Shown here: one piece after another, positions 19,568 to 49,825 of the stretch
Layout: each line of letters opens with the position of its first letter
Numbering within the stretch: position 1 is the stretch's first letter
Program-made: the position numbers and the translations under genes
From: an uncultured bacterium
GTDB taxonomy: Bacteria; Fidelibacterota; Marinisomatia; Marinisomatales; UBA1611
NCBI GenBank assembly: GCA_943788175.1
Contig: CALSPG010000005.1
Coordinates: forward strand, 192,001-256,000
DNA: 64,000 nucleotides
Direction: 5' to 3'
Notes under the pieces: model-generated
What the model saw: the letters and a program-made list of their open reading frames with translations, nothing else
The model's database searches: none
Told to the model about the DNA's origin: nothing

Positions 19568-19572
19568 ACTAA

Positions 19573-26361: not shown

Positions 26362-26375
26362 TCATCCTTCACTAT

Positions 26376-26786
26376 CTAAATAATATTACTGACAACAAAA
26401 GTATCGCTCAAGATTGGAGCCACCTCTTGAGCTGGTCCATGTCTGATTTCTATAGTGATTAATTTAAAATCTGTTGTCATATTATCGTATATTGTTGTAA
26501 AGGTTTGATCAGTGTGCTTTACACTAACTTTATAAAAATAACCAGGGTTGCTTTCAAATTCTAAAAAGTTATTTATAGAAGCAATAGCAATGAATTGAGT
26601 ATTGCGGATTTGGTTTATTTTACTATTTAAAAGAACGGTCTGAATTGTTTTTACTTCAGATTTAACTTGCATTTTTTTAGTATGGTTTAGAGCCTCGATA
26701 AAAACAATAAAAGCACCGCCGAGAAGCAGAGCGACAACTACAATTTCTACCAAAGCAAAACCGGAAATAGTTTTTTTGATAATCAT
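26376..26786 (-). CDS. Minor pilin, PilV/GspI-like
   Basis: SG|FALVEIVV; ATG at 26786 forms an ATGA overlap with the upstream stop; C-terminal FKLITIEIRH strand. Confidence 0.75.
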   Translation of the reverse strand: MIIKKTISGFALVEIVVVALLLGGAFIVFIEALNHTKKMQVKSEVKTIQTVLLNSKINQIRNTQFIAIASINNFLEFESNPGYFYKVSVKHTDQTFTTIYDNMTTDFKLITIEIRHGPAQEVAPILSDTFVVSNII

Positions 26787-27280
26787 AAATTTTTTATTTC
26801 CCAAAAACCCGTGATTTTTTTCACATGAATTTCTTTATATTGATTTAGTATAATTGTCCCTCCTTGGAGACATGTTCCCCATTTATCAAAAGTTAAAATA
26901 TTTGTACCATTTAAATTCACGGAAGTAATGTCTACACCAGAATTATTGGTTTCGGACAGGCTAACTACACCATTAAGGCTTCCTGGGTAATCAGTAAATA
27001 AATTATTTTCTTCATAAATAGTATATGTCTCATTATTTTGATTAAATACAAATTTTATTTGTTTTCTACGACCCATAGACATGCTTTTTGCTTGGTCAAT
27101 ATCTGAAGTTATTTGATTGGCAGCAGAGTTAATTCTAACATTAACTGTGATGTCGCGTAACCTAGATGAAGAAGCTGCTATGATGATACCTAGAATTATC
27201 ATAACTATAACTAGTTCAATTAAAGAAAAACCTTTTGAGGATAATAATGAAGATTGTTTTGTGTGTTTTATTATTTTCAT
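26783..27280 (-). CDS. Minor pilin, FimT/FimU/GspH-like
   Basis: KG|FSLIELVI; SAANQITSDIDQAKSMSM; LTFDKWGT...GTIIL...TG. Confidence 0.8.
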   Translation of the reverse strand: MKIIKHTKQSSLLSSKGFSLIELVIVMIILGIIIAASSSRLRDITVNVRINSAANQITSDIDQAKSMSMGRRKQIKFVFNQNNETYTIYEENNLFTDYPGSLNGVVSLSETNNSGVDITSVNLNGTNILTFDKWGTCLQGGTIILNQYKEIHVKKITGFWEIKNL

Positions 27281-27320: not shown

Positions 27321-27791
27321 TTAGATTGTAAATAAAAGAAATTCACCATAGGATGGACTGTCTGCGTCACTATCCTTAATCAGAATCTTTCTTTTTTGTC
27401 TGCCATCAATTTCTGTATCAATCCAACTGCGATAAACAAAAGGAACATGATTTGAGTTCTTTGGTATTTCACCTGTACCAAATAGTTCATTTGGCGTTTT
27501 AAAATTAATTGAAGAGTCCATTGGCGTATTACACCAAACATCTGTCATTAAACTATCGACAGGGGGAGGAGGGACTTGAGGCGCGCCGATTGCATACGTG
27601 GTATAGTAATGGTTTAAAAATGCTTCTTGAATAATTTTCATATTTGATAAATTTCTACTGACTTGTGATTTATGTTGAAGTTGACTGAACATAGGAACAA
27701 CGGTAACTGCAAGGATACCCATGATCGCTAATACAATCACGAGTTCTATCATAGTAACGCCAGAATTTGATTTTAATTTTTTAAACAACAT
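27321..27791 (-). CDS. Type IV pilin-like protein (array member 19)
   Basis: SG|VTMIELVIVLAIMGILAVTVVPMF. Confidence 0.85.
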   Translation of the reverse strand: MLFKKLKSNSGVTMIELVIVLAIMGILAVTVVPMFSQLQHKSQVSRNLSNMKIIQEAFLNHYYTTYAIGAPQVPPPPVDSLMTDVWCNTPMDSSINFKTPNELFGTGEIPKNSNHVPFVYRSWIDTEIDGRQKRKILIKDSDADSPSYGEFLLFTI

Positions 27792-27808
27792 TTACTCCAA
27801 AAATTACA

Positions 27809-27836
27809 AAGGCTTCGCTATTATTAACGAAGCCTT
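27809..27836 (-). terminator. Hairpin, probably a weak terminator or attenuator after pilin unit 4
   Basis: AAGGCTTCG-N10-CGAAGCCTT, with only a short U-tract on the minus strand. Confidence 0.55.
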
Positions 27837-27871
27837 AAATGATAATATCAATAAAATTGAATTTTTATTTA

Positions 27872-28366
27872 TTATTGAAAACGTACTTCAGACCCCGCTG
27901 TACCAAGCTCGGTTCTAATATAAAGAGTACCGGTTACATCTTTGTCTGTTCCGTGATTAATACCCGCATTGTAAGACCACTGCCATCTTGTGTTGTCAGC
28001 TCTCTGATGCGTAATCCTTCCAGAAACGCCTCCAGAATTTTCATCGCCAGAATACCAATTTACAAATGTCCACTCATTATCAGTATCGCTGTCGTTACCG
28101 TCAGTGGTATACGTCTGAGGTAACGTTTCTAAAGCTTCGAATGGGTTTTCCGGCCAGTATCGTCTTCCTTTAGTTAGCATTTTATGCTGAGCATAATTCT
28201 CAAGAGCAGCACAGAGTTTATCTATTACAGCATCTTCTGCTGTGATCTCAGATTTTTGTATGGTTTCTAAGTATCTTGGAATAGCCACTGCAGACAAAAT
28301 ACCCAAGATGATCATAACCATTATTAATTCAATTAAGGTAAAACCATTTTTATTATTTTTCTTCAT
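27872..28366 (-). CDS. Type IV pilin (class C, YLETIQKSE)
   Basis: NG|FTLIELIMVMIILGILSAVAIPRY; WPENPF; HQRADN. Confidence 0.9.
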   Translation of the reverse strand: MKKNNKNGFTLIELIMVMIILGILSAVAIPRYLETIQKSEITAEDAVIDKLCAALENYAQHKMLTKGRRYWPENPFEALETLPQTYTTDGNDSDTDNEWTFVNWYSGDENSGGVSGRITHQRADNTRWQWSYNAGINHGTDKDVTGTLYIRTELGTAGSEVRFQ

Positions 28367-28394
28367 GATAATAATTCCTTATTTATAAATATTT

Positions 28395-28877
28395 CTAATT
28401 ACCGCCAGTACCATTCACTCTATGAACGATGTTGATAGGACCAAATGGAGCGCCATTATGTTCAATTTTTCCATCGTTAGGATTGTATTTCCAAACCGCA
28501 ATGCTATCAGATTTTCTTAAATGGGCTATTGCAAGGTTGTAGGTAGGGTTGTTTCCTTCGCCTGTAAAAATCCAGTCCCTATCTTTCATTTGAGATAGTA
28601 CAAAAAGGTCAGCATCATAATCTGGTGGAAGTTTAGATAGTGCTACGAATGGATTTTCTGGCCAGGAACGAACACCGTTCGCAATGTATTGCTCACGAGC
28701 ATAGGTCTCCAAACCATCATAGATAGTATTCAATATTCGTTGTTCTACAGCAACTTCACTTTCAATTACAATATCTTGAAACCGTGGAATAGCGACTGCC
28801 GCTAAAACTCCGATTATGATCATGACCATGATAAGCTCTATTATCGTAAATCCGTTTTTATTTTTCATATGTTGCAT
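28395..28877 (-). CDS. Type IV pilin (class E)
   Basis: NG|FTIIELIMV...IPRF; WPENPF. Confidence 0.9.
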   Translation of the reverse strand: MQHMKNKNGFTIIELIMVMIIIGVLAAVAIPRFQDIVIESEVAVEQRILNTIYDGLETYAREQYIANGVRSWPENPFVALSKLPPDYDADLFVLSQMKDRDWIFTGEGNNPTYNLAIAHLRKSDSIAVWKYNPNDGKIEHNGAPFGPINIVHRVNGTGGN

Positions 28878-28906
28878 TTAATTGCCTCATTCTTATTTTG
28901 TTAAAT

Positions 28907-29326
28907 TTAATTTATTTCCCCGTTACTAGAGTTATAGCTCCAAAAATAACTTGTGCCATTTCTCCTATGATAAACTTTATCTGCTGAAAACCACCATGCA
29001 TCTTCTTGACCAGAATCAGTACCATTTGTGTAACCTGATGGCGTTTTCTCTAACTCGTTAAAAGGATTCGAAGGATATGTTTTATACCCTGTTAATAAAA
29101 CATTGTCCAATGCTTTGATCTCCGCAGCAGATTCTAGCTGGGCAAGTATAGCATTTTCAGCAGCTTCAGCGGATTGAGATATAATGTTACCCATTTTTGG
29201 TACTGCGACTGCTGCCATAATTCCTAGGATAACCATTACAATAATTAGCTCAACTAGCGTAAAACCTTCACGCAATTTTTTTGATGCGACCATTTTAAAA
29301 CTTTCTTTTTGTTGTAATAAATTCAT
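28907..29326 (-). CDS. Type IV pilin (class D)
   Basis: EG|FTLVELIIV...VPKMGN; YPSNPF. Confidence 0.9.
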   Translation of the reverse strand: MNLLQQKESFKMVASKKLREGFTLVELIIVMVILGIMAAVAVPKMGNIISQSAEAAENAILAQLESAAEIKALDNVLLTGYKTYPSNPFNELEKTPSGYTNGTDSGQEDAWWFSADKVYHRRNGTSYFWSYNSSNGEIN

Positions 29327-29343
29327 AAAAATCTCTATCGAGT

Positions 29344-29745
29344 TTAGTAATCAACTCTAGCTCCAAATAAACCAGTGCTTACATCATAATACCATTTGTG
29401 CCGAGTGTTGTCATTTCTTTGGTGAGCAATGTAATTATCAGATGTAAATATCCATTCACCATCTGCATCAAGGTAGCCATCATTCGTGTAACCTTCTGGC
29501 AATTTATCAAGCTCGTCAAAAGGATTGTACGGATAGCTTTTATTTGAGTTTTTGACCACTTGGTCCATTGCATAGACTTCAACAGCAGTTCGAAGAGAAG
29601 CTAAAACCGTATTTTCAGCAGCTTCTTCAGACGATGCAATTGTGTTACCCATTCTAGGGACAGCAACTGCTGCTAAAATTCCAAGTACTACCATGATGAT
29701 TACTAATTCAATCAGTGTGAATCCTTCGTTAAACAATTTTTTCAT
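29344..29745 (-). CDS. Type IV pilin (class D)
   Basis: EG|FTLIELVII...VPRMGNT; TGATG overlap with the upstream pilin. Confidence 0.9.
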   Translation of the reverse strand: MKKLFNEGFTLIELVIIMVVLGILAAVAVPRMGNTIASSEEAAENTVLASLRTAVEVYAMDQVVKNSNKSYPYNPFDELDKLPEGYTNDGYLDADGEWIFTSDNYIAHQRNDNTRHKWYYDVSTGLFGARVDY

Positions 29746-30113
29746 CAATTAATCTCTCCAGTTGATGTATTGTATCCCCAGGTTAATTCACTGCCATCAT
29801 TTCTAGTATGTCGAATATTCCCGTTGCTAAACCACCAGCCTTTTGAAAATAGAAGATCATTTTTACTTTTTGTATCTAATGCATCAAACGGGTTTAACGG
29901 GTAACTCTTTACTGAGTTTAAAACTACTTGATCCATTGCGTAAACTTCTATAGCTGAGCTGAGACTTCCAATGACTGCTTCTTCAGCAGCTTCTTCAGAA
30001 GAATCAATTGTATTCCCTAACCTTGGAACTGCTACGGCAGCTAAGACACCTAAGATTACCATGATAATTACTAATTCTATTAGCGTAAAACCGCTGTTTA
30101 AGTTTTTCTTCAT
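29745..30113 (-). CDS. Type IV pilin (class D)
   Basis: MKKNLNSG|FTLIELVII...VPRLGNTIDSSE; TAATG overlap. Confidence 0.9.
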   Translation of the reverse strand: MKKNLNSGFTLIELVIIMVILGVLAAVAVPRLGNTIDSSEEAAEEAVIGSLSSAIEVYAMDQVVLNSVKSYPLNPFDALDTKSKNDLLFSKGWWFSNGNIRHTRNDGSELTWGYNTSTGEIN

Positions 30114-30502
30114 TATTGCGTGTATCCGAACTGAATTTCGCCATTATCAGAGTTATAGCTCCAGAATGATCTCGATCCATCATTTCTGACATGATTTATG
30201 CCGTCATTACCAAATCCGCCTATTTGCCAATTATTGTTATATAAATCATTTTTGCTCTTATCGTCAAGTGCCTCAAATGGGTTATCAGGATAACTTTTGT
30301 TTGAATTATTTACAACTTGGTCCATTGCATAGACTTCTAAAGCAGATCTTAGGTTTCCAATGACTGCTTCTTCAGCTGATTGTTCAGAAGAATCAATTGT
30401 ATTCCCTAACCTTGGAACTGCTACAGCAGCTAAAACACCTAAGATTACCATGATTATTACTAGTTCTATTAGTGTAAAACCACTATTTAAATTTTTCTTC
30501 AT
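30113..30502 (-). CDS. Type IV pilin (class D)
   Basis: MKKNLNSG|FTLIELVII...VPRLGNTIDSSE. Confidence 0.9.
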   Translation of the reverse strand: MKKNLNSGFTLIELVIIMVILGVLAAVAVPRLGNTIDSSEQSAEEAVIGNLRSALEVYAMDQVVNNSNKSYPDNPFEALDDKSKNDLYNNNWQIGGFGNDGINHVRNDGSRSFWSYNSDNGEIQFGYTQ

Positions 30503-30529
30503 TTTTAAATCTTATTATGTAGTTTTTAA

Positions 30530-30994
30530 TTATAATTCTTGTCTGTTTCCAAGAGAACCAATACTAGCATTGTCACCAGCCTGAACCCCTCTATCATAAT
30601 TCCAAAAATATCTAGAATTATCAGCACGTTGATGCGTTATTCTAGAGTTATTCATATCGAAAGTCCACTCACCATCCTGATCAGCAACACCATCAAGTTG
30701 CCCTATCTCAGATTCGTTTCCATTGTCGTTCGAATCATACCCAACTGGCAACTCTGAAAGAGCATCAAAAGGGTTTGTCGGCCAAATGGCTCTACCTTCA
30801 CTATATAGCTTATTATTTGCATATTGCTTTAAGCCAGATTTTATGCTGCTTATTACAGCATTTTCTGCAGATTCTTCTGCATTAGAAATACTATCTAGGT
30901 ATCTTGGAACCGCTACGGCCGCCATGATTCCAAGAATAACCATTACAATGATTAACTCGATCAGTGTAAAACCTTTATTATACTTGTTCTTCAT
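30530..30994 (-). CDS. Type IV pilin (class B, YLDSISNAE)
   Basis: KG|FTLIELIIV...VPRYLDSISNAE; WPTNPF; HQRADNSR. Confidence 0.9.
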   Translation of the reverse strand: MKNKYNKGFTLIELIIVMVILGIMAAVAVPRYLDSISNAEESAENAVISSIKSGLKQYANNKLYSEGRAIWPTNPFDALSELPVGYDSNDNGNESEIGQLDGVADQDGEWTFDMNNSRITHQRADNSRYFWNYDRGVQAGDNASIGSLGNRQEL

Positions 30995-31019
30995 AATCAG
31001 ACTCCTTTTTAAACTCTAT

Positions 31020-31508
31020 TTATTGGGCTAAATCGCCTTTAAATATTTTAGTGAAAGGTAAATAGGGTGAATCTCCATGACTTATAGCACCATTAGCGGG
31101 GTCATAAATCCAAACAGATAGACTATCTTCAACACGCCTGTGCACAATTGCATTTGCTAAAGATATGTTGCCAAATGTTCTTTCTGTCTGGCCTGTAAAA
31201 ATCCATTCACCACCAACCAAACTAGTCATGTCAGTATTGGTACTATCGTATTCAAAAGAGATAGATGTTAGTACGCTGAAAGGGTTCTCAGGCCAAGATT
31301 TAATTCCTGTATCCATAAACTCTTCCATTGCCCATGTTTCTAAACCTTCGACAACTTGTGTTATAATACCTTGCTCAGATGCTGCTTCGCCCTGCCTAAT
31401 GACAACAGCAAACCTAGGTATTGAAACTGCTGCTAGAATACCAATAATGATAATAACCATTATTAATTCTATTAAAGTAAAACCATTTTTATTTGTTGAA
31501 TTCATCAT
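31020..31508 (-). CDS. Type IV pilin (class E)
   Basis: NG|FTLIELIMV...IPRF; WPENPF. Confidence 0.9.
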   Translation of the reverse strand: MMNSTNKNGFTLIELIMVIIIIGILAAVSIPRFAVVIRQGEAASEQGIITQVVEGLETWAMEEFMDTGIKSWPENPFSVLTSISFEYDSTNTDMTSLVGGEWIFTGQTERTFGNISLANAIVHRRVEDSLSVWIYDPANGAISHGDSPYLPFTKIFKGDLAQ

Positions 31509-31533
31509 TTACTCCTATTAATTCTTATAGTTT

Positions 31534-31971
31534 TTATTGCGCAATTGCAGTTCTATTACCCAGCGTACCAATTTTAGCGTCATCTCCGCCACCTTGTGTA
31601 CCTGGCTCATAAGACCACTCAAATCTGCTATTATCCGCTCTCTGATGTGTGATCCTGCCACTACTAAAAGTCCATTCGCCATCAGTATCTGCATCAGTTA
31701 CGTCTGTTGAGTAACCAGCTGGTTTTTCTGAAAGAGCATCAAAAGGGTTCGTAGGCCACTCTGCTCTACCGCTCTCATATAGAGAGTTATTAGCATATTG
31801 TGCAAGGCCTGATCTGACACTAGAGATCATAGCGTCTTCTGCAGATTCTTCTGCATTAGAGATGCTGTCTAAATATCTTGGTACAGCTACTGCTGCCATG
31901 ATTCCGAGTATGACCATTACAATGATTAACTCAATTAATGTAAAACCGTTGTGCGATGTTACTTTTTTCAT
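31534..31971 (-). CDS. Type IV pilin (class B), first gene of unit 4
   Basis: NG|FTLIELIIV...YLDSISNAE; the mature part is nearly identical to 34855..35310. Confidence 0.9.
   Translation of the reverse strand: MKKVTSHNGFTLIELIIVMVILGIMAAVAVPRYLDSISNAEESAEDAMISSVRSGLAQYANNSLYESGRAEWPTNPFDALSEKPAGYSTDVTDADTDGEWTFSSGRITHQRADNSRFEWSYEPGTQGGGDDAKIGTLGNRTAIAQ
31544..31947. repeat. ~404 bp near-identical direct repeat of 34883..35286
   Basis: Direct comparison at offset 3339; I saw three mismatches, and the flanks differ. Confidence 0.85.
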
Positions 31972-32113
31972 ATTATTACCACTTTCTTTTATTTTATTAC
32001 CACATTCATTTTAGAAATATGGAACTGTTTAATTTTCAATTCTTATTTTTTGAGGTGCCTCTAGTCGAGAGAAACTTCAAAACCTGTAAACTTTTTAACT
32101 AACACTCTAATAA

Positions 32114-32129
32114 TACAACTACTGTGCCA
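32114..32129 (-). promoter_or_regulatory. Sigma-54 (-24/-12) promoter of pilin unit 4
   Basis: The minus strand reads TGGCACAGTAGTTGTA versus the consensus TGGCACG-N4-TTGCW. Confidence 0.75.
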
Positions 32130-32216
32130 AACCACTAAACAATTAAAATTTTTATTTACAACCCTCTGAAAATAATTTTTTACGATGTTTATAATTTTTA
32201 ACTGTAACATTATGAA

Positions 32217-32253
32217 TGTCCATTTTTGTTACACTGTGTAAAGTTTGATGACA
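32217..32253. promoter_or_regulatory. Two TGT-N11-ACA putative enhancer (bEBP) sites
   Basis: TGTCCATTTTTGTTACA (32217-32233) and TGTAAAGTTTGATGACA (32237-32253), starting 88 and 108 bp from the promoter edge. Confidence 0.7.
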
Positions 32254-32274
32254 CCGCTTTTAACCTATAAACGT

Positions 32275-32309
32275 AAAAACGGGTGAATCTTTTTAGACCC
32301 GCCCGTTCT
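32275..32309 (-). terminator. Probable intrinsic terminator of pilin unit 3
   Basis: Imperfect hairpin AAAAACGGGTG...CGCCCGTT, with a T-run on the minus strand. Confidence 0.55.
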
Positions 32310-32346
32310 ATACACGATGTAAATATGCCTTTAAATAACTATTTTA

Positions 32347-32862
32347 TTACTGTGAGCAATCGCATTCCTCAACTGGATATTCAGAGGACCACCACCCGTC
32401 TGGGATGTTTTCAAAAGAACCATATTGATTAAGATCATAACAATAAGAAGCACACCAATCATGATCAACATAAACGGGAGCACTACTAACACCACCAGAA
32501 CTTAATTCCCCAGTTGTTGAGTTATAGGTCCAGTTAGCCGAACTGTTATTATTTCTAAGGTGGAATATTGATGTCCCGTCATAACTCCAGGATGTTCCAG
32601 TAAGTTTTATCCTACTTTTATTGTCCAGAGCATCAAAAGGATTAGTAGGGTAGCTTTTATTTGAATTAGTAACAACTTGGTCCATTGCATAGACTTCTAA
32701 AGCAGACCTTAAGTTTCCTATTACTGCATCTTCAGCTGATTGCTCAGAAGAGTCAATTGTATTTCCTAATCTTGGAACCGCTACGGCTGCTAAAACGCCT
32801 AAGATTACCATGATTATTACAAGTTCTATAAGCGTAAAACCACTGTTTAAGTTTTTCTTCAT
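32347..32862 (-). CDS. Type IV pilin (class D) with a Cys-rich C-terminal extension
   Basis: MKKNLNSG|FTLIEL...; tail WCASYC...EECDCSQ. Confidence 0.9.
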   Translation of the reverse strand: MKKNLNSGFTLIELVIIMVILGVLAAVAVPRLGNTIDSSEQSAEDAVIGNLRSALEVYAMDQVVTNSNKSYPTNPFDALDNKSRIKLTGTSWSYDGTSIFHLRNNNSSANWTYNSTTGELSSGGVSSAPVYVDHDWCASYCYDLNQYGSFENIPDGWWSSEYPVEECDCSQ

Positions 32863-32887
32863 AGTCGAACCCTAATGTCTACTTTTT

Positions 32888-33334
32888 TTATTCAAGTTCT
32901 TGTCTTGGCTCTAAATATCCAGGCACTGCATTGTCGCCAACCTGTGTCCCAGCCATATAATTCCAGTTATACCTACTATTATCTGCTCTTTGGTGTGTAA
33001 TTTGTCCATTAACTTCATCATAACTAATAAAAGTCCATTCGCCATCAGTGTCCGCTATATCTCCATCTTCAGTATAGCCAGCTGGCTTTTCTGATAATGC
33101 ATCAAAAGGGTTTGAAGGCCAACTTGCCCTGCCGTTAGTATATAATGAGTCATTAGCGGCTTGCTTAAGCCCTGATCTAATTGCTGAGATCACAGCATCT
33201 TCTGCAGATTTTTCTGCATTAGAGATGCTGTCTAAATATCTTGGTACAGCTACTGCTGCCATGATTCCGAGTATGACCATTACAATGATTAACTCAATTA
33301 ATGTAAAACCATTCTTTTTGTTCATTCTCTTCAT
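32888..33334 (-). CDS. Type IV pilin (class B), apparently chimeric
   Basis: The 5' part is near-identical in DNA to 34855..35310; the 3' part diverges. Confidence 0.9.
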   Translation of the reverse strand: MKRMNKKNGFTLIELIIVMVILGIMAAVAVPRYLDSISNAEKSAEDAVISAIRSGLKQAANDSLYTNGRASWPSNPFDALSEKPAGYTEDGDIADTDGEWTFISYDEVNGQITHQRADNSRYNWNYMAGTQVGDNAVPGYLEPRQELE

Positions 33335-33848
33335 GATGTTTCCTTTTTTTAATTGTTATAAATTTTATTTAAAAAGTATTTCAGAACCGCCAGTTCCTAG
33401 ATCTGAACGCTCATAGAGTGTTCCTGTTACGTCATTGTCAGTACCTGTATTTATACCTTTATTATAACTCCATTGAAAACGAGAGTTATCCGCTCTTTGA
33501 TGTGAGATGTAACCGGTAAAAGCGCCATCACTCGCGTCAACAACAAAAGTCCATTCGTTATCTTCATCACATGGCGTACCATCTTGTGAGTACGACTGTG
33601 GTTTTGTAACTAAGGCATCAAAAGGGTTGCTCGGCCAATAGCGTCTACCTTCAGACAACATTTTATTTTGAGCATAATTTTCTAACGCAACAACTATAGT
33701 GTTAACAACAGCATCTTCAGATGCAACTTCTGATTTTTGAATTGTCTCAAGATATCTTGGGATCGCTACTGCAGCCATAATTCCTAAGATAATCATGACC
33801 ATGATCAATTCGATTAATGTAAATCCGTTCTTTTTATTTGTTTTCATT
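33198..33848. repeat. ~650 bp near-identical direct repeat of 35174..35824
   Basis: Offset 1976; a few SNPs, including a cluster near 33695-33710 (NTIVV versus NNIVV). Confidence 0.85.
33365..33847 (-). CDS. Type IV pilin (class C)
   Basis: MKTNKKNG|FTLIELIMV...YLETIQKSE; differs from 35341..35823 by one residue. Confidence 0.9.
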   Translation of the reverse strand: MKTNKKNGFTLIELIMVMIILGIMAAVAIPRYLETIQKSEVASEDAVVNTIVVALENYAQNKMLSEGRRYWPSNPFDALVTKPQSYSQDGTPCDEDNEWTFVVDASDGAFTGYISHQRADNSRFQWSYNKGINTGTDNDVTGTLYERSDLGTGGSEILFK

Positions 33849-33872
33849 TTGTACTCCTATTAATTCTTGTAT

Positions 33873-34604
33873 TTAGTTAAAGCTCTTTATTGTGTGGTAT
33901 TTTGATGGATTGTACGCATCTGCGATAACCATAATGGGGCCACAATCATTACACTGTCTTGTTTTTAAAGAACCATCAACGTCATCGTAATAATATTTTG
34001 TACCACCAGGGATAACAGCAAAAACGTAATGTCCTTGTCTATAGGGGCTTTTAATTGCGCCCTCATCCTTTGATAAATATGCTTTAAACTCATCATGGGC
34101 AAACTGTGTACCTAAGTTTTCATCTGTAACACCACCTAGATAGTTATCGTCGACAACATTTGTCCCAAAAACAGATCTCCATTTAGGTCCAGGGTGACCA
34201 GCGCCGCTAGCGCCTGAATAAGCAGCCCAGCGACTGTAAGACGCCTCTGTCTGAACGCTGCCATCATCTGAATAGACAGGTGTTAAATCCGCCATTAATT
34301 CATCTAAATTGGAATAGCCACCTACTTGAACATCATACTTTGCTTGTCCCGGTAAGCGACCTTGACCTTCTCCAAGACGATTTGTAGTGGAGTAAGGTGC
34401 AGAAGTATTCATAAAAAACTGATTGACCATGCCACCGATTTTGTCCAGGTTTTGCTTTGTTTGATTTGCTTTACCAGCATCACCTACACCAGAAAAACGA
34501 GGGGCAGCTGTTGTGGCAAGTGTCGCCATCATTGCTGCAGTGACAGCAAACTCAGCAAGTGAGTTGCCTTTGTTGTTTCTTAGCTTATTAAACAATCGTT
34601 TCAT
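33873..34604 (-). CDS. Atypical long type IV pilin (class A, G|NSLAE)
   Basis: KG|NSLAEFAVTAAMMATLATTAAPRF with E5 and P22 conserved. ATG 34604 has an RBS; the ORF track starts at 34631. Confidence 0.8.
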   Translation of the reverse strand: MKRLFNKLRNNKGNSLAEFAVTAAMMATLATTAAPRFSGVGDAGKANQTKQNLDKIGGMVNQFFMNTSAPYSTTNRLGEGQGRLPGQAKYDVQVGGYSNLDELMADLTPVYSDDGSVQTEASYSRWAAYSGASGAGHPGPKWRSVFGTNVVDDNYLGGVTDENLGTQFAHDEFKAYLSKDEGAIKSPYRQGHYVFAVIPGGTKYYYDDVDGSLKTRQCNDCGPIMVIADAYNPSKYHTIKSFN

Positions 34605-34645
34605 TTTAATTACCTTGTTAAATTTTTTCATAGTTACTTATATAT

Positions 34646-34661
34646 AACAAACGGCGTGCCA
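34646..34661 (-). promoter_or_regulatory. Sigma-54 promoter of pilin unit 3
   Basis: Minus strand TGGCACGCCGTTTGTT. Confidence 0.75.
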
Positions 34662-34749
34662 AAAATGACAAAAAATCAAAAAATAATGTTTTTATAGAGG
34701 ATAAATAATTTTAAATAAATTTAGAAGGGAAGAGGGGGAGAAGCAAAAA

Positions 34750-34786
34750 AGTGAAGATTGTTTACAAATTGTAAACTTTTGTTACA
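34750..34786. promoter_or_regulatory. TGT-N11-ACA putative enhancer pair
   Basis: AGTGAAGATTGTTTACA (34750, degenerate) and TGTAAACTTTTGTTACA (34770), 89 and 109 bp from the promoter edge. Confidence 0.7.
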
Positions 34787-34796
34787 GAGTGTACAT

Positions 34797-34830
34797 AAAA
34801 GAGCATCCTTAATTAAGTGGATGCTCTTTT
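34797..34830 (-). terminator. Intrinsic terminator of pilin unit 2
   Basis: AAAAGAGCATCC-N10-GGATGCTCTTTT. Confidence 0.8.
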
Positions 34831-34854
34831 ATTAACTATGAATGAATAATTGCT

Positions 34855-35310
34855 TTATTCTGGTTGTTGTCCCTGTTGTCCTATTGCAGTTCTATTACCC
34901 AGCGTACCAATTTTAGCGTCATCTCCGCCACCTTGTGTACCTGGCTCATAAGACCACTCAAATCTGCTATTATCGGCTCTCTGATGTGTGATCCTGCCAC
35001 TACTAAAAGTCCATTCGCCATCAGTATCTGCATCAGTTACGTCTGTTGAGTAACCAGCTGGTTTTTCTGAAAGAGCATCAAAAGGGTTCGTAGGCCACTC
35101 TGCTCTACCGCTATCATATAGAGAGTTGTTAGCATATTGTGCAAGGCCTGATCTGACACTAGAGATCATAGCGTCTTCTGCAGATTCTTCTGCATTAGAG
35201 ATGCTGTCTAAATATCTTGGTACAGCTACTGCTGCCATGATTCCGAGTATGACCATTACAATGATTAACTCAATTAATGTAAAACCATTCTTTTTGTTCA
35301 TTTTCTTCAT
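34855..35310 (-). CDS. Type IV pilin (class B)
   Basis: NG|FTLIELIIV...YLDSISNAE. Confidence 0.9.
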   Translation of the reverse strand: MKKMNKKNGFTLIELIIVMVILGIMAAVAVPRYLDSISNAEESAEDAMISSVRSGLAQYANNSLYDSGRAEWPTNPFDALSEKPAGYSTDVTDADTDGEWTFSSGRITHQRADNSRFEWSYEPGTQGGGDDAKIGTLGNRTAIGQQGQQPE

Positions 35311-35340
35311 GATGTTTCCTTTTTTTAATTGTTATAAATT

Positions 35341-35823
35341 TTATTTAAAAAGTATTTCAGAACCGCCAGTTCCTAGATCTGAACGCTCATAGAGTGTTCC
35401 TGTTACGTCATTGTCAGTACCTGTATTTATACCTTTATTATAACTCCATTGAAAACGAGAGTTATCCGCTCTTTGATGTGAGATGTAACCGGTAAAAGCG
35501 CCATCACTCGCGTCAACAACAAAAGTCCATTCGTTATCTTCATCACATGGCGTACCATCTTGTGAGTACGACTGTGGTTTTGTAACTAAGGCATCAAAAG
35601 GGTTGCTCGGCCAATAGCGTCTACCTTCAGACAACATTTTATTTTGAGCATAATTTTCTAACGCAACAACAATGTTATTGACGACAGCATCTTCAGATGC
35701 AACTTCTGATTTTTGAATTGTCTCAAGATATCTTGGGATCGCTACTGCAGCCATAATTCCTAAGATAATCATGACCATGATCAATTCGATTAATGTAAAT
35801 CCGTTCTTTTTATTTGTTTTCAT
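35341..35823 (-). CDS. Type IV pilin (class C)
   Basis: MKTNKKNG|FTLIEL; ATG 35823 follows the RBS ggaggaag. Confidence 0.9.
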   Translation of the reverse strand: MKTNKKNGFTLIELIMVMIILGIMAAVAIPRYLETIQKSEVASEDAVVNNIVVALENYAQNKMLSEGRRYWPSNPFDALVTKPQSYSQDGTPCDEDNEWTFVVDASDGAFTGYISHQRADNSRFQWSYNKGINTGTDNDVTGTLYERSDLGTGGSEILFK

Positions 35824-35864
35824 TACTTCCTCCAAAAGGCTTTTATTCTATTAAATGTTAAATA

Positions 35865-36329
35865 TTATAATTCTTGACGATTGCTAAGAGTTCCAACAGC
35901 AGCTGCATCGCCAGTTTGCTGACCTTTATCGTAAGCCCAATAAAAGCGAGAGTTGTCAGCGCGCTGATGCGTAATTCGAGAATTACCATAATCAAAAGTC
36001 CATTCACCATCGTCATCTGCTATTCCATCAAGCTGTTCAACTCCTGATTCCATACCATTATCATTAGCATTATATCCTGCAGGTGCTTCACTTAAAACCT
36101 CAAAAGGGTTATCAGGCCAGGTAGCTCTTCCTTCTTTAAAAAGTGAATTACTAGCGTGTTGCTTTAAACCATTTTTTATGGCAGTTATTACTGCATCCTC
36201 AGAAGATTGTTCTGCATTAGAAATGCTATCAAGGTATTTTGGTACAGCTACTGCAGACATTACACCTAAAATGACCATAACGATGATCAATTCGATTAAT
36301 GTAAATCCGTTCTTTTTATTTGTTTTCAT
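35865..36329 (-). CDS. Type IV pilin (class B)
   Basis: MKTNKKNG|FTLIELIIV...KYLDSISNAE. Confidence 0.9.
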   Translation of the reverse strand: MKTNKKNGFTLIELIIVMVILGVMSAVAVPKYLDSISNAEQSSEDAVITAIKNGLKQHASNSLFKEGRATWPDNPFEVLSEAPAGYNANDNGMESGVEQLDGIADDDGEWTFDYGNSRITHQRADNSRFYWAYDKGQQTGDAAAVGTLSNRQEL

Positions 36330-36354
36330 TTTGTACTCCTATTAATTCTTGTAT

Positions 36355-37086
36355 TTAGTTAAAGCTCTTTATTGTGTGGTATTTTGATGGATTGTACGCA
36401 TCTGCGATAACCATAATGGGGCCACAATCATTACACTGTCTTGTTTTTAAAGAACCATCAACGTCATCGTAATAATATTTTGTACCACCAGGGATAACAG
36501 CAAAAACGTAATGTCCTTGTCTATAGGGGCTTTTAATTGCGCCCTCATCCTTTGATAAATATGCTTTAAACTCATCATGGGCAAACTGTGTACCTAAGTT
36601 TTCATCTGTAACACCACCTAGATAGTTATCGTCGACAACATTTGTCCCAAAAACAGATCTCCATTTAGGTCCAGGGTGACCAGCGCCGCTAGCGCCTGAA
36701 TAAGCAGCCCAGCGACTGTAAGACGCCTCTGTCTGAACGCTGCCATCATCTGAATAGACAGGTGTTAAATCCGCCATTAATTCATCTAAATTGGAATAGC
36801 CACCTACTTGAACATCATACTTTGCTTGTCCCGGTAAGCGACCTTGACCTTCTCCAAGACGATTTGTAGTGGAGTAAGGTGCAGAAGTATTCATAAAAAA
36901 CTGATTGACCATGCCACCGATTTTGTCCAGGTTTTGCTTTGTTTGATTTGCTTTACCAGCATCACCTACACCAGAAAAACGAGGGGCAGCTGTTGTGGCA
37001 AGTGTCGCCATCATTGCTGCAGTGACAGCAAACTCAGCAAGTGAGTTGCCTTTGTTGTTTCTTAGCTTATTAAACAATCGTTTCAT
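36355..37086 (-). CDS. Atypical long type IV pilin (class A), identical to 33873..34604
   Basis: Identical translation; the ORF track starts at 37113. Confidence 0.8.
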   Translation of the reverse strand: MKRLFNKLRNNKGNSLAEFAVTAAMMATLATTAAPRFSGVGDAGKANQTKQNLDKIGGMVNQFFMNTSAPYSTTNRLGEGQGRLPGQAKYDVQVGGYSNLDELMADLTPVYSDDGSVQTEASYSRWAAYSGASGAGHPGPKWRSVFGTNVVDDNYLGGVTDENLGTQFAHDEFKAYLSKDEGAIKSPYRQGHYVFAVIPGGTKYYYDDVDGSLKTRQCNDCGPIMVIADAYNPSKYHTIKSFN

Positions 37087-37127
37087 TTTAATTACCTTGT
37101 TAAATTTTTTCATAGTTACTTATATAT

Positions 37128-37143
37128 AACAAACGGCGTGCCA
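37128..37143 (-). promoter_or_regulatory. Sigma-54 promoter of pilin unit 2
   Basis: Minus strand TGGCACGCCGTTTGTT. Confidence 0.75.
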
Positions 37144-37231
37144 AAAATGACAAAAAATCAAAAAATAATGTTTTTATAGAGGATAAATAATTTTAAATAA
37201 ATTTAGAAGGGAAGAGGGGGAGAAGCAAAAA

Positions 37232-37294
37232 AGTGAAGATTGTTTACAAATTGTAAACTTTTGTTACAGAGTGTACATGTAATTTTTTGATACA
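37232..37294. promoter_or_regulatory. Three TGT-N11-ACA-like putative enhancer sites
   Basis: A degenerate site at 37232, TGTAAACTTTTGTTACA at 37252 and TGTAATTTTTTGATACA at 37278. Confidence 0.7.
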
Positions 37295-37315
37295 AATTAA
37301 TAAGTTATATACAAT

Positions 37316-37342
37316 AAAAAAGCCCTGACTCATCAGGGCTTT
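37316..37342 (-). terminator. Intrinsic terminator of pilin unit 1
   Basis: AAAGCCCTGA-CTCA-TCAGGGCTTT, with a T6 run on the minus strand. Confidence 0.8.
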
Positions 37343-37366
37343 AAAATAATATTATTGATTAATAAA

Positions 37367-38032
37367 CTATGGTTGGTATTTCTTAAATAGTTTAGATGGA
37401 TTCTCGTTATCCGCAACATATAAAATGGGTGAACATTCTAAACATTGCACGGCAACATAAGTCCCATCACCGTCAGGATCAACATAATCAACTCCACCAG
37501 GAAGAACTATATATATATAGTGACCATCCTGGTAAGGACTTTTAATTGCGTTGTTTGCAAATTCAGCCATGTACTCCACGTGTCCTTGTGTTCCTTGATC
37601 ATCAGTAATAGTGCTCTCTATCGCCTTGTTAGCTCCAGAAGCAGTTGTCCCAAATATAGATCTCCATTTGGCACCTTCACTATGGTCGTATGTATTAAAG
37701 GCGGTTGATTCGTCAGCATCTTCACCAATTGCTGATAGAAGCATTATTTCGCTGTCATATCCACCTACAGCAACATTATATTTCTCTTGCCCGGGAAATC
37801 TTCCACGGCCCTCAACAGTAACTCTATTGTTAAAAAAGTTTGAAGAAGCAATAACAATTTTGTCAATTTCAGCTAACGTTTTTTTCTCTTTAGCGCCTTC
37901 TCCAATTCCTGAGAATCTTGGAGCAGCTGTTGTGGCTAGAGTCGCCATCATTGCTGTTGTAACTGCGAATTCAGCTAATGAGTTTCCACTTATACTTTTT
38001 ATTTTTTTTTTAATACTTTTTAATTTTATCAT
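37367..38032 (-). CDS. Atypical long type IV pilin (class A), monocistronic
   Basis: SG|NSLAEFAVTTAMMATLATTAAPRF; homologous to the duplicated long pilin (GRFPGQEKY, KWRSIFG, IKSPYQDGHY, CxxC). Confidence 0.8.
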   Translation of the reverse strand: MIKLKSIKKKIKSISGNSLAEFAVTTAMMATLATTAAPRFSGIGEGAKEKKTLAEIDKIVIASSNFFNNRVTVEGRGRFPGQEKYNVAVGGYDSEIMLLSAIGEDADESTAFNTYDHSEGAKWRSIFGTTASGANKAIESTITDDQGTQGHVEYMAEFANNAIKSPYQDGHYIYIVLPGGVDYVDPDGDGTYVAVQCLECSPILYVADNENPSKLFKKYQP

Positions 38033-38076
38033 AATTTAGTTTCCTAACTGAATGTTTTGTGCACTGTAAATATAAC

Positions 38077-38092
38077 AGCAATATCTATGCCG
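38077..38092 (-). promoter_or_regulatory. Sigma-54 promoter of pilin unit 1
   Basis: Minus strand CGGCATAGATATTGCT, with canonical GG-N10-GC spacing. Confidence 0.75.
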
Positions 38093-38199
38093 GAAATAGG
38101 TTTTTATCTTATAAATATTGTTTTTCCTCTTAAAATAATATTTAACTGAAAATAGACTGCTCTATTATTTAATTTTTTTAACAGCATATTAATACATAT

Positions 38200-38216
38200 T
38201 GTAACACTATGTTACA
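38200..38216. promoter_or_regulatory. Palindromic TGT-N11-ACA putative enhancer site
   Basis: TGTAACA-CTA-TGTTACA, 108 bp from the promoter edge. Confidence 0.75.
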
Positions 38217-38240
38217 GCTGGTACAATTGGTACATGCTCA

Positions 38241-45341: not shown

Positions 45342-49825
<4,484 letters not shown>

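What the first reader, a model, noticed from the sequence alone, without database searches (positions are those of the whole stretch)
27321..38032. Array of 19 full-length type IV pilin genes in at least six sequence classes
Seen: 19 consecutive co-oriented genes with prepilin leaders, plus 4 separate minor pilins. Classes: A = 33873, 36355, 37367; B = 30530, 31534, 32888, 34855, 35865; C = 27872, 33365, 35341; D = 28907, 29344, 29745, 30113, 32347; E = 28395, 31020; F = 27321. Classes B-E share the core [WY]PxNPF..L...W.F...H.R....W.Y....G and lack the usual C-terminal disulfide loop. Established: most T4aP loci have one major pilin, and Neisseria pilS copies are silent and 5'-truncated. Here every copy has a start codon and leader, and some are translationally coupled (TAATG, TGATG). 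Inference: this is an expressed pilin repertoire that builds heteropolymeric or switchable pili, perhaps for phage-receptor evasion or varied particle binding.
Basis: partly seen in the sequence, partly recalled or inferred. Interest (0 to 1): 0.9.

Follow-up and report, generated by a model that had tools for sequence, protein, structure and literature searches.

The report
Nineteen-gene pilin array in SAR406
A small uncultured ocean bacterium (Marinimicrobia/SAR406) carries 19 intact pilus-subunit genes in a row, arranged as four separately switched operons inside one pilus-assembly locus, which suggests that its pili are built from many different subunits rather than one.

Summary
Window 27321-38032 (minus strand) carries 19 intact genes, each with a prepilin leader (Gly-1, Glu+5, Pro+22). 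Sixteen match TIGR02532/PF07963. Three "class A" genes match no family model but are homologous to pilins in the N-terminal helix. The array sits inside a complete type IV pilus locus.

New here: four sigma-54 boxes, each with TGTAACA-type palindromes upstream and a terminator hairpin before them, split the array into four transcription units. A fifth unit holds class F and the minor pilins.

A core of about 11 paralogues keeps the same order in sister species and is under strong purifying selection (dN/dS 0.00-0.18). These are therefore not silent cassettes or fast antigenic variants. This genome adds two extra units (7 genes) by duplication. Independent metagenomes carry the same DNA.

Contigs of one RNA library lie on genes of all four units. 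I found no inversion or repeat-tract switch.

Best reading: co-transcribed subunits that give mixed pili or several pilus types. Co-assembly is inferred, not shown.

In passing: T4-like ocean phages carry homologous pilin cassettes with the same promoter architecture. Earlier notes of this scan had already reported that on other DNA.

Verdict: new variant of a known kind.

The parts
43686..44522 (-). prepilin peptidase (PilD-type)
   Evidence: PF06750 at 7.5e-34 and PF01478 at 8.4e-18
42031..43728 (-). assembly ATPase (PilB/MshE-type)
   Evidence: T2SSE at 4e-126 and MshEN at 1.6e-14
40577..42034 (-). sigma-54 enhancer-binding protein with a Fis-type HTH; candidate activator of the four pilin promoters
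   Evidence: Sigma54_activat at 8.5e-66 and HTH_8 at 3.5e-13
39346..40599 (-). platform protein (PilC-type)
   Evidence: T2SSF at 8.1e-55, two stretches
38033..38240 (-). promoter region P1: TGTAACA/TGTTACA pair at 38200-38216 and a sigma-54-like box CGGCATAGATATTGCT at 38077-38092
37367..38032 (-). class A pilin A1 (221 aa), the only gene of unit 1
   Evidence: orthologue in G004 at 80% identity
37319..37342 (-). terminator hairpin after unit 1
   Evidence: fold z-score -3.5
37114..37366 (-). promoter region P2: sigma-54 box TGGCACGCCGTTTGTT at 37128-37143 and TGTAACA at 37262-37268
34855..37113 (-). unit 2: A2 (36355-37113), B (35865-36329), C (35341-35823) and B (34855-35310)
34795..34832 (-). 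terminator hairpin after unit 2
   Evidence: fold -21.8 kcal/mol, z-score -6.3
34632..34854 (-). promoter region P3: a near-copy of P2, with the sigma-54 box at 34646-34661 and TGTAACA at 34780-34786
32347..34631 (-). unit 3: A2 copy (33873-34631, identical protein to 36355), C (33365-33847), B (32888-33334) and D with a Cys-rich tail (32347-32862)
32276..32309 (-). terminator hairpin after unit 3
   Evidence: fold -19.6 kcal/mol, z-score -3.7
31972..32346 (-). promoter region P4: TGTAACA/TGTTACA at 32203-32233, sigma-54 box TGGCACAGTAGTTGTA at 32114-32129, and a 142-nt leader
   Evidence: no Rfam match
27872..31971 (-). unit 4, the conserved core: B1 31534, E1 31020, B2 30530, Dc 30113, Dc 29745, Da 29344, Db 28907, E2 28395 and C 27872
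   Evidence: same order in G001, G002, G004, G006 and G007; orthologue groups; dN/dS
27809..27836 (-). terminator hairpin after unit 4
   Evidence: fold z-score -4.1
27321..27791 (-). class F pilin (Val+1), first gene of the minor-pilin unit
   Evidence: protein identical in G001, with dN 0 and dS 0.32
25786..27280 (-). three minor pilins (26783-27280, 26376-26804, 25786-26361)
   Evidence: two of the three hit TIGR02532
23340..25847 (-). 835-aa protein with a pilin-like N-terminus lacking Glu5 and a LamG/ConA-like lectin domain; candidate tip adhesin
   Evidence: Laminin_G_3 at 2.9e-18; sequence
16810..22452 (-). envelope parts: AAA_22-PilM fusion (19573-22452), PilO (18755-19567) and secretin (16810-18129)

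Best explanation
This is a real, paralogue-expanded array of functional type IV pilin genes inside one pilus-assembly locus of a Marinimicrobia (SAR406) bacterium.

Shown by sequence:
- The array is split into four units: [A1], [A2-B-C-B], [A2-C-B-D] and [B-E-B-D-D-D-D-E-C].
- Each unit begins with a sigma-54 -24/-12 box, has TGTAACA-type palindromes upstream of the box, and ends in a hairpin terminator.
- A fifth unit carries class F, three minor pilins and a lectin-bearing pilin-like protein.

Inferred mechanism:
- The enhancer-binding protein encoded in the locus (40577-42034) binds the palindromes and switches on all four units together.
- The locus's peptidase cleaves every product at Gly-1.
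- Classes B-E have nearly the same N-terminal helix and the same beta-sheet core, but differ in the alpha-beta loop and the tail. They enter the same assembly machine and give pili of mixed composition, or several pilus types made side by side. This diversifies the pilus surface for attachment to varied particles and varies what pilus-binding phages see.

History:
- The roughly 11-gene core is old and fixed in the genus.
- The two middle units (7 genes) are a recent duplication and recombination product specific to this genome.
For: Pilin identity:
- 19 of 19 have Gly-1, Glu+5 and Pro+22.
- 16 of 19 score above the TIGR02532 cut-off.
- AlphaFold models show a long N-terminal helix plus a beta-sheet for class B (pLDDT 83) and class A (pLDDT 80).
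- The best PDB fold matches of class B are gonococcal, meningococcal, S. sanguinis, PAK and Thermus pilins.

Machinery in the locus.

Promoters:
- TGGCAC-N5-TTG[CT] occurs only 6 times in the 2.27-Mb genome. Three of the 6 lie in the array, each in a long gap on the coding strand. A fourth, looser box lies upstream of gene 37367.
- rpoN is present in the genome.
- The same box and palindromes precede class A genes in three other genomes from three genera.
- Six of the window's 18 TGTWACA sites lie in these four gaps.
- Terminator hairpins.

Conservation:
- The gene order B-E-(B)-D..-E-C-F recurs in 5 sister species.
- Orthologue groups are well supported.
- dN/dS against G001 is 0.00-0.18 in 9 of 9 pairs, in the globular part as well.

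Reality of the DNA:
- 14 DNA runs from 6 studies hold 95-97% of the sampled words.
- Contigs of two such runs match with 0-6 differences per listed piece and break only in repeated parts.
- The contigs over the duplicated class A and class C segments have about twice the depth of their neighbours.

RNA: contigs of RNA library X18 lie on genes of classes A, B, D and E in all four units (records 17-24).

No switch devices were found.
Against: - No protein-level data exist. Co-assembly is inference.
- The RNA evidence is the presence of contigs in one library, without strand, starts or reliable levels. A second 'RNA' run (X15) looks like DNA, with a 12.8-kb contig of flat depth.
- The fixed order and strong purifying selection of the core would equally fit a set of specialised low-abundance pilins.
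- Four of the five class D genes lack a recognisable Shine-Dalgarno sequence or overlap the preceding stop codon. This fits low output.
- The fold matches have weak E-values (best 0.024). Class A has no significant PDB fold match.
- No independent contig spans the duplicated units, so their order rests on the source assembly.
- The locus has no PilT-like ATPase. The only PilT-like gene lies in a second pilus locus on contig C1.
Confidence: 0.55

Rival explanations
1. There is one major pilin and many specialised minor pilins. A single gene supplies the filament: either class A, which sits next to the promoter, or one class B gene. The other conserved paralogues are low-abundance subunits with fixed roles such as priming, tip or adhesion, like an enlarged FimU-PilVWXE or GspH-K set.
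For: - The order is fixed, with one orthologue per species for most groups.
- dN/dS is very low.
- Class A is first behind three of the four promoters here. It is first in other genera and in 80 of 80 phage cassettes.
- Class D genes are short and poorly equipped for translation.
Against: - A separate conventional minor-pilin set with a large lectin-bearing pilin-like protein already follows the array.
- Classes B, C and E carry the leader, size and helix typical of major pilins. Their profile matches only major-pilin helices and GspG in the PDB.
- This genome duplicated B and C genes together with a promoter, which is unusual for minor pilins.
Confidence: 0.25
2. It is a switchable or recombining repertoire. 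Cells express different units at different times, or shuffle segments between copies, to vary the pilus surface against phages or grazers.
For: - Near-identical tracts link non-adjacent copies with mosaic borders: 99% over 407 nt, 97% over 1089 nt and 90% over 914 nt.
- In the pair 32888/34855, dS is 0.15 in the 5' part and 2.6 in the rest, as gene conversion would give.
- More than 860 distinct class B globular-domain variants exist in metagenomes.
- Copy number differs between species: 19 genes here against 11 in G004.
Against: - No inverted repeats flank the promoters.
- There are no slippage tracts in the coding 5' ends.
- P2 and P3 share identical sigma-54 boxes and near-identical sequence, and all four promoter regions share one architecture, so differential control is not evident.
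- Orthologues are under purifying, not diversifying, selection.
Confidence: 0.1
3. The extra units are an assembly artefact. Units 2 and 3 would be strain variants of one unit, stitched in tandem when the genome was assembled from a mixed population.
For: - The genome is in 12 contigs at 92% completeness, so it was probably assembled from environmental data.
- The one sister genome with a contiguous locus has 11 pilin genes and no extra units.
- No independent contig spans the repeats.
Against: - Contigs from independent studies bridge unique junctions: 31918-32701 joins unit 3 to unit 4, 32677-33241 lies within unit 3, 37249-39500 joins unit 1 to unit 2 (DNA runs X7 and X12), and 34883-35806 and 35795-36312 lie within unit 2 (run X15). 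Each has 0-1 differences.
- Contigs on the duplicated class A segment have about twice the neighbours' depth in X7, X12 and X15; the duplicated class C segment does so in X12 and X15. The tool warns that depth is not a copy number.
- The B genes of units 2 and 3 differ from each other and from the core.
Confidence: 0.05
4. The products are not filament subunits. Classes A-E would be pilin-like exported or surface-anchored proteins, or a type II secretion pseudopilus, that merely use the prepilin leader.
For: - The N-terminal halves give sub-threshold GspG hits (best 48.7 bits against a cut-off of 88.85).
- Class A is large, has Asn+1 and matches no pilin family model.
Against: - No GspC, GspL or GspM were found among the window's ORFs that I scanned.
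- A minor-pilin set and a candidate tip adhesin typical of adhesive pili are present.
- The fold and helix match pilins.
Confidence: 0.05

Closest known systems
Streptococcus sanguinis heteropolymeric type IV pilus (PilE1/PilE2); PMC10628169, abstract and section headings seen; PMC9934059, search listing only
   Same: More than one major-type pilin gene lies in tandem in the pil locus. The products are arranged stochastically in one filament. There is a modular minor pilin with a lectin module. PDB 8pfb is among the fold and sequence matches of class B.
   Different: S. sanguinis has two major pilins; this locus has at least 15 B-E genes plus 3 class A genes. It is a monoderm host. Four sigma-54 units are not described there. 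Co-assembly is shown there and only inferred here.
Archaeal pilin and archaellin paralogue sets, such as the six PilA pilins of Haloferax volcanii; PMC4858521, passages seen
   Same: Several major-pilin paralogues share a conserved hydrophobic N-terminus. Any one of them, or a combination, can build adhesive pili. The paper notes that major pilins are 'prone to tandem duplications' and reports up to nine archaellin paralogues.
   Different: These are archaeal systems, and the genes are mostly scattered singletons or short tandems. The regulation is different.
Neisseria pilE/pilS antigenic variation (recalled, no call)
   Same: Many pilin-related copies lie near each other, with signs of gene conversion between copies.
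   Different: pilS copies are silent and 5'-truncated. Here 19 of 19 copies are full-length with a leader and lie in promoter-driven units.
Thermus thermophilus wide (PilA4) and narrow (PilA5) pili made by one machinery (the biology is recalled; PDB 6xxd, 6xxe and 8qqj appear)
   Same: One assembly system makes different filaments from different major pilins.
   Different: Thermus has two pilins in different loci and no large array.
Sigma-54/PilR-dependent pilA promoters of Pseudomonas, Myxococcus and Geobacter (recalled)
   Same: A -24/-12 promoter with upstream activator sites lies in front of the pilin gene, and the activator is encoded near the pilus genes.
   Different: Here the module is present four times in one array. 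No PilS-like kinase was identified in the window.
Myxobacterial pilA multiplicity; PMC6060248, passages seen
   Same: Genomes carry one to seven pilA homologues, and tandem pilA genes occur within a T4aP cluster.
   Different: The paper calls the tandem pair 'unusual'. The homologues are mostly dispersed, and the cluster copies keep the C-terminal Cys pair.
Phage-encoded pilins P-FimU and P-PilA; PMC12952977, abstract and section 17 read
   Same: Phage genomes carry pilus subunits that enter the host pilus and block other phages. This is relevant to the homologous cassettes found here in T4-like phage contigs.
   Different: Those are single genes in Pseudomonas and Xylella phages. Here cassettes of 2-5 pilins with the host-type sigma-54 promoter occur in uncultured marine phages.

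Membership tests
Type IV pilin superfamily (prepilin-type N-terminal cleavage/methylation domain) | Short basic leader ending in Gly, followed by a hydrophobic helix with Glu at +5 | tested here: met
   19 of 19 proteins; Pro+22 is also present in 19 of 19
Type IV pilin superfamily (prepilin-type N-terminal cleavage/methylation domain) | Score above the curated cut-off of TIGR02532 / PF07963 | tested here: met
   16 of 19 by TIGR02532. 8 of the 10 proteins submitted hit PF07963. Not met for the 3 class A proteins, which are linked by hhalign at 93.5% and by PDB helix matches.
Type IV pilin superfamily (prepilin-type N-terminal cleavage/methylation domain) | Fold: a long N-terminal helix packed on an antiparallel beta-sheet | tested here: met
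   AlphaFold models of class B (helix 11-66, strands 110-134) and class A (helix 25-77, five strands 202-250). Only class B finds pilins in the PDB, with weak E-values. Class A finds none.
Type IV pilin superfamily (prepilin-type N-terminal cleavage/methylation domain) | A dedicated prepilin peptidase, assembly ATPase and platform protein are available | tested here: met
   All three are encoded upstream in the same strand run
Classical T4a major pilin (PilA/PilE type) | C-terminal disulfide-bonded loop (D-region) | tested here: not met
   12 of 19 proteins have no Cys. No class B-E protein has a C-terminal Cys pair except 32347, which has four Cys in an extension. Class A has a CxxC.
Type II secretion major pseudopilin GspG (TIGR01710) | Score above the equivalog cut-off of 88.85 bits | tested here: not met
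   Best score 48.7 bits, covering mainly the N-terminal part (7 of the 19 array proteins were tested)
Neisseria-type pilE/pilS silent-cassette system | The extra copies lack a promoter, start codon and leader | tested here: not met
   All 19 have a start codon and leader, and all lie in units with a promoter
Flp/Tad pilins or TadE-like pseudopilins (considered for class A because of its G/xxxxEF N-terminus) | Match to the Flp or TadE family models, and a short mature protein | tested here: not met
   No Pfam or NCBIfam family at E<=0.01. The mature length is 205-230 aa. Tad machinery in the genome was not searched.
MSHA-type pilus | The Msh gene set (MshA-D pilins; MshE, G, I-N) | tested here: inconclusive
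   An AAA_22 (MshM/ExeA-like) domain is fused to PilM, and the ATPase has an MshEN domain. MshEN is also on the second locus's ATPase. No Msh-specific models were run.
Sigma-54-dependent, enhancer-activated pilin promoter | A GG-N10-GC type -24/-12 element, upstream activator sites, an activator, and rpoN in the genome | tested here: met
   and conservation in relatives. Activity itself is not testable with these tools.

The most novel reading that the evidence does not exclude
One pilus machine of this SAR406 lineage builds mosaic filaments from eight or more conserved major-type pilin families plus the unmodelled class A pilin. All are driven by a repeated sigma-54 enhancer-promoter module. 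Whole pilin cassettes, promoter and activator sites included, move between these bacteria and their T4-like phages. On this reading the array is the host side of an arms race fought on the pilus surface.
Probability: 0.25. Interest if true: 0.85.

Novelty: new variant of a known kind. Interest (0 to 1): 0.62.

Why it matters
SAR406/Marinimicrobia are abundant and uncultured, and they are thought to live on sinking and suspended organic matter. How they attach to it is unknown.

This 2.27-Mb genome spends about 11 kb on pilus subunits. It had 20 matches to the pilin-leader model; only one of the 150 other genomes sampled from the phylum had more, and that one is a 4.4-Mb genome. Such investment points to the pilus surface as a major interface with particles and with phages.

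The locus offers a natural test of how many different subunits a type IV machine can polymerise. It also defines a repeated sigma-54 control module.

Together with the phage-borne cassettes, it links a widespread group of uncultured T4-like phages to a likely host.

Three searches of the paper library for Marinimicrobia or SAR406 with pilin or pilus terms found nothing on this (8, 1 and 4 papers). In the two papers where I read the passages, the pilus remarks concerned other taxa.

Tried and rejected
- Complex prediction on mature class A with mature class B returned 'no answer'. It is neither for nor against binding.
- Rfam scan of 26000-45500 at E<=1 gave no match, so there is no known riboswitch or leader RNA, including in the 142-nt P4 leader.
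- The PDB fold search with the class A model gave nothing at E<=0.001.
- tblastn of class A (gene 37367) against 50,697 GenBank phage records gave no match. The phage homologues are only in IMG/VR contigs.
- The ESM Atlas look-up for class A gave only unnamed or 'GspG C-terminal' clusters labelled viral. I used it as a lead only.
- The strict box TGGCA[CT]-N5-TTG[CT] was found upstream of class A in only 5 of 75 phage loci. Allowing TGGTAC raised this to 66 of 75.
- RNA run X15 has a 12.8-kb contig and depths like the DNA runs. I do not count it as expression evidence.
- In RNA run X18 the bins 26500-28235, 34746-35179, 36916-37349 and 39086-39500 have no cover, and 38218-39085 has about 2. 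Missing cover proves nothing, so I draw no conclusion about class F, gene 27872 or the flanks, and I do not use it as a control for DNA carry-over.
- The sigma-70-type promoter scan found fewer sites than shuffles did (41 against 48.3). It is uninformative for this phylum.
- I considered an origin of the extra copies from phages. In the tree the window's extra B, C and D genes group with host genes, not with phage genes (quick method).
- One search failed because regions and files were given together. I repeated it.

Full report
**1. What is there**

Between 27321 and 38032 the minus strand carries 19 consecutive ORFs of 122-252 aa. Fourteen of the 18 gaps between them are 41 nt or less. Two pairs share one base between stop and start: TAATG at 30113 and TGATG at 29745. 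The four longer gaps are 80, 223, 253 and 375 nt.

All 19 products have Gly-1, Glu+5 and Pro+22. Fifteen start with Phe after the cleavage site. Class F starts with Val, and the three class A proteins start with Asn.

TIGR02532 scores above its cut-off on 16 of the 19 genes and on two of the downstream minor pilins. PF07963 hit 8 of the 10 array proteins I submitted; the two misses were class A.

Class A (33873, 36355, 37367) has no Pfam or NCBIfam family. Three results still mark it as a pilin:
- Its profile aligns with the class B-E profile over the leader, the helix and the following GR..P motif (hhalign 93.5%, E 2.4e-7, 69 columns).
- It matches the N-terminal helix of solved Geobacter, Myxococcus and MshA pilins.
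- AlphaFold gives a 53-residue helix followed by a five-stranded sheet (pLDDT 79.6).

Class B folds the same way (pLDDT 83.3). Its best PDB matches are gonococcal pilin (probability 0.98, E 0.024), meningococcal pilin, the S. sanguinis heteropolymeric pilus, PAK pilin and Thermus PilA5. None reaches E<=0.001.

P72, N74, P75, F76, L79, W110, H121, R123, W131 and Y133 are invariant in 15 of 15 class B-E proteins. In the model they lie at the end of the helix and in the strands.

Twelve of the 19 proteins have no cysteine. Only gene 32347 (four Cys in a C-terminal extension) and class A (CxxC) have Cys pairs.

**2. Context**

The array lies inside one co-oriented pilus locus. In order, the locus encodes:
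- a receiver protein
- a prepilin peptidase
- a PilB/MshE-type ATPase
- a sigma-54 enhancer-binding protein
- PilC
- an Mrr-like nuclease
- the array
- three minor pilins
- an 835-aa LamG-domain protein with a pilin-like N-terminus that lacks Glu5
- an AAA_22-PilM fusion
- PilO
- a secretin
- a CHASE2-cyclase
- a 1437-aa FG-GAP protein
- a TPR protein

The genome is 2.27 Mb in 12 contigs at 92% completeness. Relatives found with class A are titled Marinimicrobia or Neomarinimicrobiota.

A second, conventional pilus locus lies on contig C1. It has one pilin, a PilT-like ATPase, PilM, PilN, a secretin and PilB.

**3. Transcription units (new)**

Three of the four long gaps share the same three elements: a strong hairpin followed by a T-run, then TGTAACA/TGTTACA-type palindromes, then a sigma-54 -24/-12 box on the coding strand. 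The fourth, the gap upstream of 37367, follows the Mrr-like gene and has the palindromes and a box but no such hairpin.

| Box | Position |
|---|---|
| TGGCACAGTAGTTGTA | 32114-32129 |
| TGGCACGCCGTTTGTT | 34646-34661 |
| TGGCACGCCGTTTGTT | 37128-37143 |
| CGGCATAGATATTGCT (looser) | 38077-38092 |

The exact pattern TGGCAC-N5-TTG[CT] occurs 6 times in the whole genome, against 3.6 expected from composition. Three of the 6 are these boxes.

Six of the window's 18 TGTWACA sites lie in the four gaps. Four more cluster at 45033-45137, upstream of the whole locus. rpoN is present in the genome.

The same box-plus-palindrome arrangement precedes class A genes in G004, G019 and G021.

The array is therefore four units:
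- [A1]
- [A2-B-C-B]
- [A2-C-B-D]
- [B-E-B-D-D-D-D-E-C]

A hairpin at 27809-27836 separates the last unit from the class F and minor-pilin unit.

In genes 33873 and 36355 the box ends 14 nt before the annotated ATG. The true start is therefore probably the second Met, ten codons in. This is an inference.

**4. Comparison with relatives**

A profile of classes B-E found 5-12 matches in six of the eight sister genomes of the genus and 1 in the other two. In 16 genomes of other genera of the family it found 1-4 matches.

G004 has a contiguous locus: PilD, PilB, activator, PilC, Mrr, then A, A, B, E, D, D, D, D, E, C, F, then the minor pilins. That is 11 pilin genes.

In G001, G002, G006 and G007 the contig begins inside the array, and the order from there on is the same. 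The upstream part of those arrays is therefore unknown.

A careful maximum-likelihood tree of 56 class B-E proteins resolves these groups:

| Group | Support (ultrafast bootstrap / SH-aLRT) |
|---|---|
| C | 100/98 |
| E1 | 100/97 |
| E2 | 100/98 |
| B, with two subgroups | 99/99 |
| D | 99/99 |
| Db, within D | 100/99 |
| Dc, within D | 98/97 |

Da (the 29344 type) is the third D lineage; it is only weakly supported as a group (86/44 without its G004 member). The groups mostly have one member per species. I left out class A, class F, the G003 fragments and the truncated first gene of G006.

The paralogues therefore predate the genus. dN/dS between this genome and G001 is 0.00-0.18 in 9 of 9 orthologue pairs, in the helix and in the globular part alike. 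Against G004 it is 0.04-0.18 in the 6 of 9 pilin pairs where dS was not saturated, and 0.02 for PilC.

Other genera expand class A instead, with four or five copies, several in tandem, in G019, G021, G183, G185 and G187. Lineage-specific pilin amplification is thus a trait of the family.

In a sample of 151 genomes of the phylum this genome has 20 TIGR02532 matches. Only one genome has more (21), and it is 4.4 Mb. The maximum within the same order is 13.

**5. The extra units**

Seven genes have no positional counterpart in G004: 35865, 35341, 34855, one of the two A2 copies, 33365, 32888 and 32347.

Self-comparison of the DNA shows three long near-identical tracts:

| Tract 1 | Tract 2 | Identity | Length |
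|---|---|---|---|
| 33708-34796 | 36190-37278 | 97.3% | 1089 nt |
| 31544-31950 | 34883-35289 | 99% | 407 nt |
| 32935-33848 | 34926-35824 | 89.7% | 914 nt |

The two A2 proteins are identical. The two extra C proteins differ with dS 0.05. The pair 32888/34855 has dS 0.15 in the first 55 codons and 2.6 in the rest, as a conversion tract would give.

**6. Is the DNA real, and is it in RNA?**

Fourteen DNA runs from six studies hold 95-97% of the sampled words of 28200-38150. Six RNA-labelled runs from four studies hold 54-93%.

Contigs of two DNA runs from studies other than the possible source (X7, X12) match with 0-6 differences per listed piece. They break only inside repeated segments. Together with X15 they bridge junctions 31918-32701, 32677-33241, 34883-35806, 35795-36312 and 37249 onward.

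Contigs on the duplicated class A segment (in X7, X12 and X15) and class C segment (in X12 and X15) have about twice the depth of their neighbours. For class A in X12 this is 32.9 against 13-18, and in X7 it is 55.9 against 30-36. The tool warns that depth is not a copy number, so I take this only as consistent with two copies.

RNA run X18 has short contigs on genes of classes A, B, D and E in all four units (records 17-24). This shows presence in an RNA library. It does not show strand, starts or levels. Run X15 looks like DNA, and I set it aside.

**7. Mechanism**

Shown by sequence:
- intact pilins
- one machine encoded in the locus
- four sigma-54 units
- conservation under purifying selection

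Inferred:
- The locus's activator binds the palindromes and turns all units on.
- Genes within a unit are made together.
- Classes B-E share an almost identical first 22 residues and the same sheet core, so they can enter one filament. Their variable alpha-beta loops and tails would diversify its surface.

I found no inversion-type repeats and no slippage tracts in the coding 5' ends, so I rank co-expression above switching.

The main rival is that one gene supplies the filament and the rest are specialised minor subunits. The fixed order and the poor translation signals of class D fit that reading.

**8. Phage link (in passing)**

Class A relatives occur in 192 IMG/VR contigs, of which the best 80 were kept.
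- In 75 of the 80, the class A gene is followed by B- or C-like pilin genes, and often by F-, D- or E-like ones.
- Twelve carry the set A, C-like (54-67% identical to the window's class C), E-like and B-like.
- Of five of these records searched, two hold a Gp23 capsid gene (E about 1e-76) and two hold a terminase. Two hold neither. CheckV completeness is 47-72% at 93-131 kb.
- Neighbouring genes hit phage families, including cobS- and cobT-like ones.
- 66 of 75 loci have a TGG[CT]A[CT]-N5-TTG[CT] box within 400 nt upstream, and 61 of those also have TGTWACA sites. The background rate is 0.038 per 400 nt.
- In a quick tree, phage C-like genes are sister to host class C (SH-aLRT 98), and phage E-like genes lie inside class E (SH-aLRT 100). 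The 21 phage rows came from 11 loci that I chose.

Earlier notes of this scan had reported such phage cassettes on other DNA. My checks agree with them.

A laboratory precedent for phage pilins entering host pili is P-FimU (PMC12952977, abstract and section 17 read).

**9. Comparison and novelty**

Multiple major pilins are known in several systems:
- S. sanguinis PilE1/PilE2 in one filament (PMC10628169, abstract and section headings)
- six PilA pilins in Haloferax, and tandem-prone archaeal pilins (PMC4858521, passages)
- one to seven pilA homologues in myxobacteria, where a tandem pair is called unusual (PMC6060248, passages)

What is new here:
- the scale: 19 genes in about 11 lineages in a 2.27-Mb genome
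- the unmodelled class A family: 75 representative clusters at E<=1e-30 among 1.84 billion proteins, and 38 clusters in the word-based search, none named beyond 'hypothetical' or 'PulG'
- the fourfold sigma-54 module
- the shared gene pool with phages

The array is a new variant of a known kind.

Noticed in passing
L041-L120 (IMG/VR contigs): T4-like phage contigs carry cassettes of 2-5 pilin genes, with class A first, followed by B/C-, E-, F- or D-like genes. They have the same sigma-54 box and TGTWACA sites as the host locus. 192 loci were found. Gp23 or terminase was found in 3 of the 5 records searched. Earlier scan notes describe the same on other DNA.
   Followed up: partly
G000:C1:78000-97900 (L121): A second, conventional type IV pilus locus has one pilin, a PilT-like ATPase, PilM, PilN, a secretin and PilB. 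The array's own locus has no PilT-like gene.
   Followed up: partly
window 38241-39251 (-): An Mrr_cat restriction-endonuclease-like gene sits between pilC and the first pilin. It is kept at that place in G004 at 91% identity. Its role is unknown.
   Followed up: no
window 45033-45137: A cluster of four TGTWACA sites lies in the gap upstream of the first gene of the pilus locus. This suggests that the same activator also acts there. I saw no clear sigma-54 box.
   Followed up: partly
G187:C5:43711-47174, G185:C12:25262-28867, and G019, G021, G183: Other genera of the family carry 4-5 class A genes, several in tandem, but only one class B gene. Different lineages amplify different pilin classes.
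   Followed up: partly
window 32347-32862 (-): This class D pilin has a roughly 45-aa C-terminal extension with four cysteines. The extension is absent from its paralogues.
   Followed up: no
window 6881-16798 (-): Downstream in the same strand run lie a CHASE2-adenylate/guanylate cyclase, a 1437-aa FG-GAP protein with a FlgD_ig-like end, and a 913-aa TPR protein. They are possibly signalling and surface partners of the pilus.
   Followed up: no
window 31961-32013: A 21-nt unit is repeated 2.5 times across the start of gene 31534, at the end of the 142-nt P4 leader. There is no Rfam match in the leader.
   Followed up: no
run X15: A run labelled metatranscriptomic gives a 12.8-kb contig and depths like the DNA runs over this locus. 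It probably contains DNA.
   Followed up: no
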